From Octopus sinensis (Eukaryota): DNA of 24,112 nucleotides. The stretch spans positions 1 through 24,112 of the forward strand of contig NW_021836521.1 in assembly GCF_006345805.1 (NCBI RefSeq). Reading direction: 5' to 3'. The notes under the pieces are model-generated. The model did no database searches. It saw only the letters and a program-made list of their open reading frames with translations, and was not told the DNA's origin. Positions 1 through 24,112 of this stretch are shown here, piece after piece. Numbering within the stretch: the first letter of the stretch is position 1; each line of letters starts with the position of its first letter. The translations under genes and the position numbers were made by a program.

Positions 1-18
1 TATATATCTATATATATA

Positions 19-367
19 CAGGAGTAAACACATAAATGTGAAACAAGGTGGAAAAAAAAGAGTACTCAAATACAGAGGTAGAGTAATATGCTTTATTTAA
101 AAGCAGCAGAAATTTAACAAAAGCTGTTACTCGGAGTTTCATGTTCCCGTTCGTCGGACAGTTTTCCCTTCAATGTATAGGGTATCAATGTACAAGGTTT
201 CATTTATGCGCTTTGTTTTAATTTCAGTTAGTGATCGGTGACCATGCTGGAGCACTGTCGTTTATTAGATCAATCTCAGTATTTTTTTTTAACAAAACTG
301 TCCGACGAACGGGTACGTGAAACTCCGAGTAACAGCTTTTGTTAAATTTCTGCTGCTTTTAAATAAA

Positions 368-368
<1 letters not shown>
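19..368. mobile_element. Penelope-like (PLE) non-autonomous fold-back element 1: inverted pLTR-like arms 91-165 / 294-368 with hammerhead motif, one-sided tail 19-90, flanked by (TA)n
   Basis: The 75-bp arms are near-perfect reverse complements (ctttatttaaaagcagcag...cggacagtttt vs aaaactgtccg...ctgctgcttttaaataaag). Each arm has a hammerhead-like core followed by AATAAA. TA repeats lie on both sides. Confidence 0.7.
291..343 (+). ncRNA. Minimal type I hammerhead ribozyme motif (U4C core variant)
   Basis: Stem I aacaaaactgt/acag(c)ttttgtt; core CCGACGA 302-308; stem II acg-ggta-cgt; GAA; palindromic stem III actc-c-gagt; predicted cleavage after GUA (331). The antisense copy at about 116-165 has a stem II mismatch. 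Confidence 0.65.
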
Positions 369-408
<40 letters not shown>

Positions 409-410
<2 letters not shown>

Positions 411-858
411 GGTCCCGGGTTGATTCGGGGTTAACCACAGTAAATAAGGTACTCAATACATAGCAGAGTAAAATTAATTTATTATATAGAAGGAGCTTCT
501 ACAGGACTAGAACTGTTCATCAAGAGAAATCTTCAGGAAGCTAGTTAACAAGAATTGTATTGGCATTTATACATTTAGGCAGGTTTAAAGGGGTGTTGGT
601 GGGGGACTTTTTGGGGGTAGGATAGCGCAAAATATCATACTTGGGGAGTGGTCAAGCTTCTATCTAATTAACACTGACTCCTTGACCACTCCCCCAAGTA
701 TGATATTTTGCGCTATGCCTACCCCCAAAAAGTCCCCCACCAACACCCCTTTAAACCTGCCTAAATGTATAAATGCCAATACAATTCTTGTTAACTAGCT
801 TCCTGAAGATTTCTCTTGAATGAAACAGTTCTAGTCCTGTAGAAGCTCCTTCTATATA
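409..858. mobile_element. Penelope-like fold-back element 2: inverted arms 483-656 / 681-858, 24-bp spacer, one-sided tail 409-482, flanked by (TA)n
   Basis: The ~175-bp arms are reverse-complementary apart from a few homopolymer indels. They contain a canonical hammerhead. The minus-strand tail (aataaa...ttactct...tgtattgagtac) resembles the tail of element 1. Confidence 0.75.
797..847 (+). ncRNA. Type I hammerhead ribozyme motif with canonical core
   Basis: Stem I agcttc/gaagct; CUGAAGA 803-809; stem II (t)ttc-tctt-gaa(t); GAA; stem III acag-ttctagtc-ctgt; predicted cleavage after GUA (841). The antisense copy 494-542 reads GAAC instead of GAAAC. Confidence 0.8.
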
Positions 859-893
859 TAATATATATATATATAATATATATATATATATAA

Positions 894-1234
894 TCACAAA
901 TAAGGGCAAACGAAAACATTTCCAATGCCAAATATCCCGAAAAATTGGACATATTGTCCATTAACCATATTAATTTCTTTCACAATACGCACGCTACCCG
1001 AAAAAAGGTGGACCTTTTTTCGGGTTTAGCGTGCGTATTGTGAAAGAAATGATATGGTTAATGGACAATATGTCCAATTTTTCGGGATATTTGGCATTGG
1101 AAATTTTTTCGTTTGCCCTTATTTGTGAATTGTTTATAATTTTGACCTTTAGAGGTGTTTTTTAGTATGTTGGCCATTGATAAAATTTTTTTTTGGAAAA
1201 GAATTTTTTTCGAAAAAAAATTTATCTTACATTT
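894..1234. repeat. Long palindrome (894-1128, centre 1010-1011) with one-sided extension to 1234, flanked by (TA)n
   Basis: tcacaaataagggcaaacg...aaaaaaggt-gg-accttttttcggg...cgtttgcccttatttgtga; arms about 116 bp with few mismatches. No hammerhead core found. Confidence 0.85.
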
Positions 1235-2283: not shown

Positions 2284-2639
2284 CGACCTGACCTGATTTT
2301 AGAAGTCTATGTCATTGTCCTACTTGAGTTATTTCCCTTCAATGTATAGGGTTTCAATGTACAAGGTTTCCTTTATGCTCTTTGTTTTAATTTTAGTTTC
2401 AGTAAGTGATCGGTGACCATTCTGGAGCACTGTCGTTATTTATCTTCATATCATCCATGATCCAATAGATTTAAGGTCAATTGGTTTAAAACCCTAATCA
2501 TCATTTCCTTCCCTTATTCATTGCGCAACCAATGGTGCGTACTTTCTGTTTTGGAGATGGAGCGTGCAATTTAAAACAGATTTGGCTGGTAACTCTAGCA
2601 ATCCCAACAACCATGCAAAGGCTCTCACATGGTCAAATC

Positions 2640-3087: not shown

Positions 3088-3285
3088 TTGGCAGATCCAA
3101 AATACTATCAGCAGTGATTATAGCAAACGCATAGACATAAAAAAAGAGAGAAGCGAAAGGACATGATGCTCAGACTAACACTGATGATAAAACGAAGTCA
3201 TTGTATTAAAAATATAATAGTAATTTCGCCATAAATATATCTTATATTATATTACAAATGTCAGTAAGTGTATTTCTAGTATTAT

Positions 3286-3665
3286 TTTTACCTCCACCTT
3301 CGCTAAGGGGGAGATATTGTTTTCAGTTGTGCTTGTTTGTTTTTTTGGTTTGAACGTGAACAAGATATCTCAAAAAACACTAGATGGATTCGGATGAAAC
3401 TTCCAAGGATGTCTGGCCTCGTGACTGGCACGAACTGATTAGATTTTGGGATTGATCCGGTACCGGACAAGGATTCTGGATTATTTTTACTGCTTTCTTA
3501 CATAATATTTGAGAGCGATCGGGTTCATTTTTAGTATTCTCGTTTGTGAGAGCAGTCGAGTTTATTTCAGATATTCTCGTTTTAAAAAATCATCTCTGGT
3601 TAATCGTTGAGAGGATGTTGGTGATGCCTTGGCAGAGGTTTGCACTCTCTGGGGGTGCTGTTGTT
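3286..3665 (+). mobile_element. Helentron-associated non-autonomous element (HINE/DINE-1-like), copy 1
   Basis: 5' subTIR ttacctccacc with an adjacent short inverted repeat, a gttt-rich tract, 3' subTIR ggcagaggt, terminal hairpin gcactc..gggtgc, T-rich flanks. Confidence 0.65.
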
Positions 3666-3775
3666 TTATTCTTTATTTCATTGTTTAGTCTGTTTAGAAT
3701 TGTCTTCTTTATAATCTGATCATTAAGAGAGAATAGTAATTTATAGAGGGAAAGTAATTTCTTTCCCTTTGACTA

Positions 3776-4152
3776 TTCTTGCCTCCGCCTTACCGAAGGC
3801 AGAGGTATTGTTTACAGTCGTATTTGTTTGTTTGATTTGACCGAAGACAAGATATCTCAAGAAACACTGGATGGATTCGGATGAAACTTTCAGGGATGTT
3901 TGGCCTCGTGACTGACACATACCAATTAGATTATGGGATCGATCCGGTACCGAACAAAGATTCTGGATTATTTTTACTGCTTTCTTATTTAATTTTTGAG
4001 AGCGATCGGGTTCATTTTTAGTATTCTCGTTTGTGAAAGCAGTCGAGTTTATTTCAGACATTTTCATTTTAAAAATCATCCCTGGCTAATCGTTGACAGG
4101 ACGTCAGTGTTGCCTTGGCGAAGGTTTGCACTCTCTGGGGGTGCTCTTGTTT
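3776..4152 (+). mobile_element. Helentron-associated non-autonomous element (HINE/DINE-1-like), copy 2
   Basis: Direct repeat of 3286-3665 over its whole length; gcctccgcctt-accg-aaggcagagg at the 5' end, ggcgaaggt plus gcactc..gggtgc hairpin at the 3' end. Confidence 0.65.
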
Positions 4153-4199
4153 TTATGTGTTTGTGCGTGCGTTTGTGTGCACATCCTGTATATAGGAGT

Positions 4200-10814: not shown

Positions 10815-11201
10815 GTGGAGGCGCAATGGCCCAGTGGTTAGGGCAGCGGACTCGCGGTCATAGGATCGCGGTTTCGATTCCCAGACCGGGCATTGTGTGT
10901 GTTTATTGAGCGAAAACACCTAAAGCTCCAACTAGGCTCTGGCAGGGGATGGTGGTGATCCCTGCTGTACTCTTTCACCACAACTTTCTCTCACTCTTAC
11001 TTCCTGTTTCTGTTGTACCTGTATTTCAAAGGGCCGGCATTGTCACTGTCTGTGTCACGCTGATTATCCCCGAGAACTACGTTAAGGGTACACGTGTCTG
11101 TGAAGTGCTCAGCCACTTACACGTTAATTTCACGAGCAGGCTGTTCCGTTGATTCGGATCAACCGGAACCCTCATCGTCGTAACCGACGGAGTGCTTCCA
11201 C
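10815..11201 (+). mobile_element. SINE family C, full length, with 12-bp TSD
   Basis: A box TGGCCCAGTGG, B box GGTTTCGATTCC; TSD aatacaatatac at 10803-10814 and 11202-11213; homologous to 18667-19056. Confidence 0.92.
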
Positions 11202-18666: not shown

Positions 18667-19056
18667 GTGGAGGCGCAATGGCCCAGTGGTTAGAGCAGCG
18701 GGCTCGCGGTTATAGGATCACGGTTTCGATTCCCAGACCGGGCGTTGCGAGTGTTTATTAAGCGAAAACACCTAAAGCTCCACGAGGCCTCCGGCAGCGG
18801 GTGGTGGTGAACCCTGCTGTATTCTTTCACCACAACTGTCTCTCACTCTTTCTTCCTGTTTCTGTTGTAGCTGTATTTCAAAGGGGCCAGCCTTTTCACA
18901 CTCTCTGTCACGCTGAATCTCCCCGAGAACTACGTTAAGGTTACGCGCGTCCGTGGAATGCTCAGCCACTTGCACGTTAATTTCACGAGCAAACTGTTCC
19001 ATTGATCGGATCAACTGGAACCCTCGTCGTCGTAACTGACGGAGTGCCACGAAAAA
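18667..19056 (+). mobile_element. SINE family C, full length, with 12-13-bp TSD
   Basis: Same A and B boxes as 10815-11201; TSD tgttgttatcgt(g) at 18655-18667 and 19057-19069. Confidence 0.92.
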
Positions 19057-22077: not shown

Positions 22078-22271
22078 GGTTATCATATCAAAGATTGACT
22101 ATCAAACCAACGAAGGATCCTCTATATGGTTGTTAATTCTGTTAGAAATCGCAGCAAAATCTCTTCCAATTTGCACCAAATATAGGACGTATTTTTAAGT
22201 GAATATGATTTCAAAAATGTAAGTTGTTTGTACAGAAAGTATTTATATTTTAGCTTTCTTTAAATAAACAA

Positions 22272-23540
22272 TACACGAACCGCAAAAGAAACGCAATTTT
22301 TTCAAATTTAATTTTTATATGGTAAATTCTGAAAATTTATTTCGGAGATGTATGTGTAAATATTCCAAGACATGCTGGTTTACGGCTGAGACCCAAATTG
22401 CAGGTAATCTTTTAATTTTCTCTGAAACGAGACGCCAAAACGCAGCTGCGTTAGATGCCGTGGGAAGCAGTCGCAAACGGTTGCCATGGAAACCCGAAAT
22501 GCACGTGCATCTCGTGGAGGTTATGGGTATAAAGATCAACTTGAACCGCGTTCCTGGCATTCATAATTCGGACGCATCAGGTATGACCCGATTGTCAGCA
22601 TCGCAGAGAGGACAAGCTTTCGGCCGATTGCAAACAGGGCAGCGCGCCCTGGTTGTTGCGAAAGCTTACGATATCCATGTCAACACTATCTATCGCCTGC
22701 AACAGCGATACAGCAACACTAAAAGCATTGCAGAACGTACCCACAGAGGGCGCTCCGGGTGACCACGCCCAGGTAGGACCGCTTCATCCATCGGCAACAC
22801 CTCCGTGATCACTTCAGACCGGCCAGTGTGACAGCTCGCGAGACCACTGGTACTGGAGAGCGACCCGTCAGCGACGACACGGTACGACGTCGACTGACCG
22901 CCAACAACCTGCGTTGTCGTCGTCCTTCTCGAGGACCTGTCCTCACCATCCGCCACCATCAGGCACGACTACAGTGGGCTACACAGCACCGACATTGGCA
23001 GCATCAACAATAACTCGATAGTATTCTCTGAGGTGATCCGGGACTGCGGTTCCACCTCGGATGGCAGAGTGAGGTTGTGGCGTAGGAGGGGGTGAACGCT
23101 ACAGACGCGCATGTGTCATGGAGAGAGACGCATAGGGTGACCAAAACCATCATGGTTTGGGGTGCTGTAGGCCTGAATCAGAGAATTGGGTCCCATGGGT
23201 TCCAAAATGTTGGTGCAGGCAGAAGGAATGACATCAAAGCGCAGCGCTACGTTGACCAGATCCTAAGACCTCACATAGTACCCTTCTTTGCGCATCACCA
23301 TAGCCACTTGTTCAAGCAGGACAATACTCCCTCCCAAACGACCAGGGTCACCATGGACTTCCTGCGTCAGCACAACATCAGAAGCATGCCATGGTCGGCT
23401 CTCAGCTCAGATTTGAACCCAATTGAACACCTGTGGGATGAAATCCAGAGACTGCTGAACCAGGTGGTCCCAAGGCCGGTAACTCGTGTGGAACTGGATG
23501 CAGTTTCCTCAGGGTGTAAGAACAGGTGCCAATGGCATAT
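22272..23540 (+). mobile_element. Tc1/mariner DNA transposon, 3'-truncated
   Basis: TA + cacgaaccgcaaaagaaacgcaa resembles a Tc1 left TIR, and a transposase remnant follows. No right TIR is visible in the window. Confidence 0.8.
22583..23540 (+). pseudogene. Tc1-family DD34E transposase pseudogene (frameshifts and stops)
   Basis: MTRLSASQRGQAFGRLQTG..TIYRLQQRY (HTH), RGR/VTTPR*DRFI, VSDDTVRRRL..RRPSRGPVLT..RLQWA, IMVWGAV, QRYVDQILRPHIVPF, FKQDNTP, WSALSSDLNPIEHLWDE. The reading is split across at least three frames. Confidence 0.92.
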
Positions 23541-23580
23541 TTATAAAATATTTCTAAGTAAAAAATACTTTAAAAATACA

Positions 23581-24064
23581 GTAAATATTTTGTAAACGAG
23601 CCATTTCACAACTCAGTGTGAAATAATTTTTTCCATAGGTTTTTTTTTTTCGGATGCATTCAACGTATCGCACCTCCAAAGATTTGGCTTCTATTTCTAG
23701 CACGTCCTGCTATCACATAACAGCTATTTGTGATAACCAATCCGAAACAGCTGTTTCGTGGTAGCAGAGCGTGCAAGAAATAGCTGCCAAATCTTTCCTT
23801 TTCTGGGGAACGAGCCGTTTATGCGTGATTCCGATGTCACATTCGTTGAAAGCATCAGAAATAACCCGGAAAAGAAAAAAGACCCACGATACAAAACTCC
23901 GTTGGTGGGAAACTCCGAGGTCCCCATCACCCATCCCCATTCTTTGCTGGAAGAAAGTGGCTTTTGATCGGTGTGGAGGTGAGATACGTTGAATGCACAC
24001 GAAAAAACCTGTGGAAAAATTATTTCACACTGGAGAACGAACGAGTGCTTTACGTAATATTTAC
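23581..24064. repeat. Nested inverted-repeat (fold-back/MITE-like) structure
   Basis: Outer arms 23614-23678 / 23974-24032 (plus gtaaatatt 23581 / aatatttac 24064); inner arms 23678-23725 / 23749-23796; palindrome cgaaacagctgtttcg 23743-23758. Confidence 0.75.
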
Positions 24065-24112
24065 CCAAGACCGGAACAGGCATGCGTATAGAAGGATCGA
24101 TGAAACTGATAA

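What the first reader, a model, noticed from the sequence alone, without database searches (positions are those of the whole stretch)
163..293. Loop of fold-back element 1 is a copy of sequence 2.2 kb downstream
Seen: 163-262 aligns in direct orientation with 2332-2437 (tttcccttcaatgtatagggt.tcaatgtacaaggtttc..gtgatcggtgaccat.ctggagcactgtcgtt), with a few substitutions and one ~6-bp indel. The match includes non-repeat-looking sequence and shared divergences in an old SINE tail. The left junction overlaps the arm by ttt. Inference: local host DNA or RNA was captured between the inverted pLTRs by template switching during integration, so these elements may duplicate nearby sequence.
Basis: partly seen in the sequence, partly recalled or inferred. 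Interest (0 to 1): 0.7.

Follow-up and report, generated by a model that had tools for sequence, protein, structure and literature searches.

The report
Penelope insertion copied nearby host DNA
A hairpin-shaped stub of a Penelope-like jumping gene encloses a 100-base copy of otherwise single-copy DNA lying 2.2 kb away, likely a repair scar left when the two halves of the insertion were joined; it is rare in this family and of a kind already described for other retrotransposons.

Summary
Window 163-262 is a direct copy of 2332-2437 (5 substitutions, one 6-nt indel), and a genome-wide search finds only these two places. The arms (about 19-165 and 294-368) are the 3' pLTR, with and without its 71-nt tail, of a young, high-copy, Hydra-like Penelope-like element that targets (TA)n. 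The copy meets the arms at 3-nt and (tentatively) 5-8-nt overlaps. At the two differences that an old SINE fragment can polarise, the loop has G (SINE 66 of 69) and T (11 of 33) where the donor has rarer letters. This suggests an aged, real duplication. It is not a family habit: 0 of 150 other fold-backs hold a filler with a separate local donor, and 2 of 150 hold host-like loops of other kinds. Best reading (0.58): a templated insertion bridging two cDNA ends during integration. Repair of the hairpin tip after insertion cannot be excluded. Host capture by Penelope pLTRs and L1 templated insertions are in print, and this scan reported the same kind of capture in other genomes. New member of a known kind.

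The parts
1..18 (.). (TA)n target tract left of the insertion, cut off by the start of the contig (window = whole contig G000:C12992)
   Evidence: sequence; place in genome
19..165 (-). Left arm: 5'-truncated copy of the element's 3' pLTR plus its 71-nt tail, inverted
   Evidence: aligns to pLTR+tail of real copy L120; 97.3% to the best full-length copy; same end in autonomous copy L203
163..165 (+). 3-nt overlap shared by the left arm and the donor (left junction)
163..262 (+). Captured copy of host DNA at 2332-2437; 166-221 is single-copy sequence
222..255 (+). Old SINE fragment inside the copy; loop letters at 246 and 229 are closer to other SINE copies than the donor's
   Evidence: 246: G in 66 of 69 SINE hits, donor letter T in 1 of 29; 229: C 20, T 11, A 2 of 33
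258..265 (+). Right junction: 5 nt (8 with one gap) shared by the donor end and the element body about 45 nt upstream of the pLTR (tentative)
263..293 (+). Patchy remnant, likely of the element body, plus T run and AAC leading into the pLTR; not donor-derived
   Evidence: shuffle p 0.006-0.07; longest exact match elsewhere in the window 9 nt
294..368 (+). Right arm: 3' pLTR ending at the short (tail-less) end
   Evidence: 876 candidates, best 97-99%; 1440 exact hits of its first 20 nt
294..340 (+). Minimal type I hammerhead-like motif read by eye, core CCGACGA (canonical CTGATGA in autonomous copy L203)
   Evidence: sequence; no hammerhead family in Rfam; MFE fold did not give the hammerhead
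369..407 (.). (TA)n tract right of the insertion
2332..2437 (+). Donor: single-copy host DNA running into an old SINE fragment, with no element sequence at its edges; 1,964 bp from the right end of the insertion
   Evidence: a donor-type contig of 775-822 nt was laid in 4 of 8 public runs, 3 samples

Best explanation
Two outward-facing, 5'-truncated ends of a Penelope-like element enclose a 100-bp direct copy of host DNA from 2.2 kb downstream, likely a templated insertion made while the insertion was being sealed. Inferred steps: the element's GIY-YIG endonuclease cut both strands of a (TA)n tract, and each host 3' end primed reverse transcription, the left one at the tail end of the RNA and the right one at the short end. 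Both cDNAs stopped early. The left cDNA's free 3' end (top strand) likely annealed through TTT to the bottom strand of the downstream flank, exposed by resection or in a D-loop. About 100 nt were copied (host repair polymerase or the RT; not distinguishable here). The new end then likely released and annealed through the 5-8 nt overlap to the right cDNA's end. Priming across the break in this way predicts the direct orientation seen. In most sister insertions the two ends joined with little or no filler.
For: Shown: direct copy and single other place in the genome. Both edges of the copy fall at element junctions with 3-nt and 5-8-nt overlaps. The arms are pLTR ends of elements with an RT-like and C-terminal GIY-YIG-like ORF (L202, L203). 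119 of 150 other fold-backs have one tail arm and one short arm, 0 have two short arms and 2 have two tails. The left arm's tail cannot be a fold-back copy of the tail-less right arm, which fits two priming events. Loop-donor divergence (5 of 100) is compatible with arm divergence (2 of 75 between arms, Fisher p=0.70; about 1.4% per lineage, Poisson p=0.14). The donor carries the rarer letter at 2 of 2 polarisable sites. From papers: a purified PLE cuts and extends both strands and has two RT start sites that define the tail (PMC11167929, passages). PLE 5' junctions by microhomology and host DNA captured between pLTRs are reported (PMC3846280, passages). L1 templated insertions under 250 bp are attributed to cDNA pairing with nearby DNA (10.1101/2024.08.27.596794, passages).
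Against: This is a single, ascertained case. 0 of 150 sister fold-backs show the same thing, and short fillers show no excess match to their own flanks (3 of 47 at p<=0.05, 2.4 expected). The left overlap is only 3 nt in AT-rich DNA. The right overlap depends on a patchy alignment to the element body (p=0.07 without the junction bases). The donor is about 2 kb away, whereas the L1 templates are typically within 15 bp. All 5 substitutions are transversions, which is unusual for neutral ageing. Age cannot separate capture at insertion from capture soon after. The left flank and any target duplication lie beyond the contig start.
Confidence: 0.58

Rival explanations
1. The fold-back inserted first with a short loop. 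Its 75-bp palindrome later broke at the hairpin or cruciform tip, and end-joining repair filled the break with a templated copy of the downstream DNA. The element only supplied the fragile site.
For: It gives the same end structure and microhomologies. The loops of sister copies are heterogeneous and often eroded to A/T runs, and 263-293 looks reworked. Loop-donor divergence does not exceed what either timing allows. Palindrome-centre revision by repair is recalled, not looked up.
Against: A later capture should make loop and donor more alike than the arms are to each other, but they are not (5 of 100 vs 2 of 75, small numbers). With about 150 palindromes of similar build sampled, such fills are rare.
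Confidence: 0.2
2. The element's RT jumped from its own RNA onto a nascent host transcript of the 2332-2437 region and back, so the capture was RNA-templated.
For: Template jumps onto read-through transcripts have been proposed for Penelope elements (PMC3846280, passages). Direct orientation is possible if the right cDNA used a + strand transcript.
Against: No ORF or gene overlaps the donor. The copy has no poly(A), splice junction or RNA end, and it stops at short overlaps. A donor 2 kb away on the same contig is what DNA-end invasion predicts, whereas an RNA could come from anywhere.
Confidence: 0.1
3. The loop is an assembly or library chimera at the end of a small unplaced contig.
For: It lies in the first 370 bp of a 24-kb unplaced contig that starts with stacked palindromes. 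Neighbouring palindrome arms show single-base indels of the kind left by long-read consensus. All 5 differences are transversions.
Against: The differences are substitutions and a 6-nt indel between T runs rather than homopolymer slips. At both polarisable sites the loop is closer to the SINE family than the donor is, which a fresh chimera of the donor would rarely give (weak, 2 sites). Both outer ends are the family's exact biological ends on (TA)n, in the family's usual tail/short arrangement. Two separate template switches would be needed.
Confidence: 0.07
4. The 100-mer is a dispersed repeat, or part of an older segmental duplication that two elements happen to flank.
For: 35 nt of it (222-255) is a SINE fragment.
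Against: Only 2 places in 2.7 Gb. The match ends exactly at the element junctions, with no shared flanks. No (TA)n lies between the arms' 5' ends and the copy, as independent insertions would leave.
Confidence: 0.02

Closest known systems
Insertion units of endonuclease-bearing Penelope-like elements: pLTR, adjacent inverted 5'-truncated copy, optional tail (PMC8557442, passages and section 11 read; PMC11167929, passages)
   Same: Inverted 5'-truncated pLTR pair, tail on one arm only, (TA)n target, linked autonomous copies with RT-like then GIY-YIG-like domains and the Hydra-clade motifs (RWK, DKT, CxCX5C, no CCHH).
   Different: The tail is 71 nt rather than 30-40 nt. The passages seen describe no host-derived filler with an identified local donor between the inverted arms.
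Host DNA captured by Penelope pLTRs in Adineta vaga (Arkhipova et al. 2013, PMC3846280, passages)
   Same: Unrelated host sequence framed by pLTRs; 5' junctions by microhomology; template jumps proposed.
   Different: There the captured DNA lies mainly between direct pLTRs, is 0.9 kb or longer (up to a whole gene), and is read as mobilisation in trans. Here it is 100 bp between inverted stubs, with the donor 2 kb away in cis.
L1 templated insertions (10.1101/2024.08.27.596794, passages) and local sequence remodelling at L1-made breaks (10.1101/2024.12.14.628481, passages)
   Same: [quoted passage not shown]
   Different: The element class differs (PLE). The template bridges two oppositely primed cDNAs. 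The donor is about 2 kb away rather than typically within 15 bp. This is a copy in a genome assembly, not a somatic tumour event.

Membership tests
EN+ Penelope-like element | Single ORF with RT and a GIY-YIG endonuclease, linked to the same terminal repeat | tested here: met
   L202 (723 aa) and L203 (727 aa) carry a YRDD motif and a C-terminal GVVY...TYTG motif read by eye, with the arm sequence downstream and inverted upstream at 84-90% identity. Pfam and PDB sequence searches gave no hit, so the domain names rest on motifs.
EN+ Penelope-like element | pLTR with optional 3' tail; inverted 5'-truncated copy next to it | tested here: met
   Two 3' ends 71 nt apart; 119 of 150 fold-backs pair a tail arm with a short arm; same in the window.
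EN+ Penelope-like element | Hammerhead ribozyme motif in the pLTR | tested here: inconclusive
   Motif read by eye, canonical core in L203 and a variant core in the window. Rfam listed no hammerhead family; the MFE fold did not give it.
EN+ Penelope-like element | Target-site duplication | not testable with these tools
   Target is (TA)n and the left flank lies beyond the contig start.
Hydra clade of PLEs (PMC8557442 section 11) | RWK motif, DKT motif, CxCX5C linker, CxxC and CxH at the EN end, no CCHH | tested here: met
   All present in L202; L203 has single-residue variants of the DKT and linker motifs. The paper's supplementary alignment was not seen.
Hydra clade of PLEs (PMC8557442 section 11) | Insertion into (TA)n | tested here: met
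   Copies printed end on TA (occasionally TG) tracts; the window likewise.
Hydra clade of PLEs (PMC8557442 section 11) | Generally short, under 3 kb | tested here: inconclusive
   L203 spans about 3.3 kb from ORF start to pLTR end; the paper says 'generally'.
Hydra clade of PLEs (PMC8557442 section 11) | Placement in the clade by RT phylogeny | not tested
   No reference Hydra proteins were fetched; the family is called Hydra-like.
Templated insertion at a retrotransposon junction (L1 type) | Non-element template under 250 bp inside the insertion that duplicates a genomic segment | tested here: met
   100 bp, donor intact at 2332-2437, two places in the genome.
Templated insertion at a retrotransposon junction (L1 type) | Template typically within 15 bp of the insertion site (typical, not required) | tested here: not met
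   1,964 bp away today; younger insertions in between (408-852, about 893-1230) may have lengthened this. It works like the L1 case but is a longer-range example.
Templated insertion at a retrotransposon junction (L1 type) | Formed during integration | not testable with these tools
   No empty or short-loop allele is available; divergence is compatible with either timing.

The most novel reading that the evidence does not exclude
Hydra-type Penelope fold-backs are built at the target site from two cDNAs primed at a double-strand cut and then sealed by host end-joining after kilobase-scale resection. The orientation of a captured filler records which end primed: direct means across the break, inverted means snap-back. 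Rare captures like this one would then map the reach and polarity of the still undefined PLE integration intermediate in an invertebrate germ line.
Probability: 0.35. Interest if true: 0.5.

Novelty: new member of a known kind. Interest (0 to 1): 0.3.

Why it matters
How Penelope-like elements form their inverted ends is still open (PMC8557442, passages). A filler copied from the insertion's own neighbourhood is a trace that, if made at insertion, places the joining of the two halves at the target site and points to host repair. That argues against the hairpin being made beforehand by self-priming, as proposed in PMC3846280. As a source of genome change it is minor here: about 100 bp of non-coding DNA, in at most about 2% of sampled fold-backs.

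Tried and rejected
Read support for the loop: 8 public runs (6 samples, Logan contigs) were laid on 130-330. A donor-type contig covered 163-262 in 4 of 8 runs; 4 had no cover over 172-213; no contig of the loop type or spanning a loop junction was listed. A hole in contigs proves nothing, so this neither confirms nor refutes the loop. No RNA holder was listed, which says nothing on expression. L052 looked like a second local capture, but its filler is a repeat (254 candidates). L043 and L082 were false fold-back calls on low-complexity matches in the first, looser screen. L121 was a false call in the second screen and was dropped, and 7 loci that repeated a site were dropped before counting. 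13 arm pairs from the list, whose coordinates showed loops of about 30 nt or less, were not fetched and are not counted. Unique self-duplications near the element in 80 ten-kb loci: 9 of 80 had one, none was a loop filler. Five were looked at: mostly neighbouring fold-backs or duplications apart from the junction; the L082 pair was shown only on one side. Short fillers against own flanks: no excess, 3 of 47. No donor was found for the L286 filler genome-wide or within about 23 kb each side. Rfam, Pfam and PDB gave no hammerhead, RT or GIY-YIG hit. PMC9977147 and 10.64898/2026.07.22.740005 (passages) had nothing on this point. Paper searches listed no paper whose title or opening abstract describes a local-donor filler between inverted PLE pLTRs; most listed papers were not opened, and most subscription journals are not in the library. 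Supplements of PMC8557442 (Hydra alignments) were not opened, and those of the L1 preprint (donor distances) are closed; both may bear on the comparisons.

Full report
Observation. The window is the whole of an unplaced contig, G000:C12992, in a 2.72-Gb genome. Positions 163-262 align in direct orientation with 2332-2437 over 106 columns at 89.6% identity: substitutions at 184, 202, 210, 229 and 246, all transversions, and 6 nt missing from the loop. A DNA search of the genome with 163-293 gave 2 candidates and 2 matches, the loop and the donor. Only 222-255 is repetitive (an old SINE fragment); 166-221 matched none of 162 other family loci. The match ends at the arm junctions and has no shared flanks, and nearby 1730-1845 is single-copy. 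A donor-type contig of 775-822 nt lay over 163-262 in 4 of 8 public runs from 3 samples, with the same number of differences from the loop as the window's own donor. Positions 263-293 are not from the donor and look like a patchy remnant of the element body (shuffle p=0.006 with the junction bases, 0.07 without).

What the arms are. The right arm 294-368 has 876 candidates in the genome, the best at 97-99%; its first 20 nt occur 1440 times exactly. Copies sit in (TA)n and have two 3' ends 71 nt apart. The left arm, about 19-165, is the inverted pLTR with the tail. One copy (L120) carries broken ORF pieces upstream of the arm. Searching with its endonuclease-like piece led to copies L202 and L203, with open frames of 723 and 727 aa, a YRDD motif, a C-terminal GIY-YIG-like motif, the arm downstream and an inverted copy upstream. 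L202 shows the RWK, DKT, CxCX5C, CxxC and CxH motifs and lacks CCHH, as listed for the Hydra clade (PMC8557442, section 11 read). Pfam and PDB gave no hit and no tree was built, so the family is called Hydra-like. A minimal hammerhead-like motif is visible by eye at 294-340; Rfam did not call it.

Junctions and age. The left junction shares 3 nt between arm and donor. The right shares 5 nt, or 8 with one gap, between the donor and the element body about 45 nt upstream of the pLTR. The arms differ from each other at 2 of 75 sites and from the common family letters at about 3 of 221, which is compatible with 5 of 100 between loop and donor (Fisher p=0.70, Poisson p=0.14). In the SINE fragment, the loop has G at 246 like 66 of 69 SINE hits, while the donor's T occurs in 1 of 29. 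At 229 the loop's T occurs in 11 of 33 hits and the donor's A in 2 of 33. The donor therefore seems to have changed after the copy was made. This is weak evidence (2 sites) for an aged, real event. Direction is donor to loop, because the donor runs on into unique DNA on both sides with no element sequence.

Is it a habit of the family? I screened 242 other loci (162, 80; flanks of 1.5, 3.5 or 5 kb) and found 150 fold-backs after dropping one false call. Most loops are under 20 nt or element-derived. None of the 150 had a filler with a separate surviving local donor (one-sided 95% upper bound 2.0%). One, L286, has a host-like filler of about 100 nt with no donor found genome-wide or within about 23 kb. 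One, L266, encloses an inverted duplication of about 300 bp of host DNA that, in an element-free paralogue 112 kb away, lies directly before the microsatellite tract. One has a microsatellite filler (L022), and two are nested copies (L052, L215). Short fillers show no excess match to their own flanks (3 of 47). In 119 of 150 fold-backs one arm has the tail and the other the short end; none has two short ends.

Mechanism. Shown: architecture, copy, donor, overlaps, rarity. Inferred: both host ends at a cut (TA)n tract primed reverse transcription at the two start sites, as a purified PLE does in vitro (PMC11167929, passages). The left cDNA end then primed on the exposed bottom strand of the downstream flank, about 100 nt were copied, and the end annealed to the right cDNA. 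This cross-break route predicts the direct orientation; a snap-back of the right end would give an inverted copy. I put this at 0.58, repair of the hairpin tip after insertion at 0.2, an RT jump onto host RNA at 0.1, an assembly chimera at 0.07 and a repeat or segmental duplication at 0.02.

Comparison with what is known. Inverted 5'-truncated copies, tails and (TA)n targeting are standard for PLEs (PMC8557442, passages). Microhomology 5' junctions and host DNA captured between pLTRs were reported in Adineta vaga (PMC3846280, passages). L1 templated insertions, under 250 bp and typically within 15 bp of the site, are described in tumours (10.1101/2024.08.27.596794, passages). Six paper searches listed nothing by title or opening abstract on a local-donor filler between inverted pLTRs. 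However, earlier unreviewed notes of this scan report that arrangement in other genomes, some with rates of 3-10%; I did not check them. Here the rate is lower and the donor is direct and relatively far.

Verdict. A confirmed, single, probably real repair scar in a Hydra-like Penelope stub. New member of a known kind; interest 0.3.

Noticed in passing
L266:3431-4310 (G000:C11:49383047-49383926); paralogue L296:4555-4872: A fold-back of the same family whose two arms share a private deletion and enclose an inverted duplication of about 300 bp of host DNA plus (TA)n. In an element-free paralogue 112 kb away (and on C9891) that DNA lies directly 5' of the microsatellite tract. This looks like an older copy re-copied together with its upstream flank; the left flank has no match in the paralogue.
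   Followed up: partly
L286:3521-3647 (G000:C18:39373066-39373192): A fold-back of the same family with about 100 nt of host-like filler (repeat fragment plus unique sequence); no full-length donor was found genome-wide or within about 23 kb on either side.
   Followed up: yes
window 408-852: A second fold-back of another repeat family, 180-bp arms in (TA)n, with a hammerhead-like motif by eye and an extra 70-80 nt on the left side like a tail; 96-98% copies in L089 and L090.
   Followed up: partly
window 893-1230: A third fold-back of another family (about 120-bp arms, with the right side running on for about 100 nt), also found in several fetched loci; class not determined.
   Followed up: partly
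window 294-340; L203:5098-5140: The arm's hammerhead-like core is a variant (CCGACGA) in this high-copy subfamily but canonical (CTGATGA) in the autonomous copy L203.
   Followed up: no
window 22268-24110: Broken open frames resembling a Tc1/mariner transposase (label recalled from the translation, not searched), with a short inverted match between 23614-23678 and 23974-24032.
   Followed up: no
window 3283-3667 / 3774-4153 and 10815-11195 / 18667-19047: Two pairs of about 380-bp direct repeats at 86% and 89% identity; probably dispersed repeats.
   Followed up: no
G000:C16:40726255-40727040 (L204): An endonuclease-like frame ends only about 460 bp before the pLTR, against about 1.3 kb in L120, suggesting internally deleted derivatives.
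   Followed up: no
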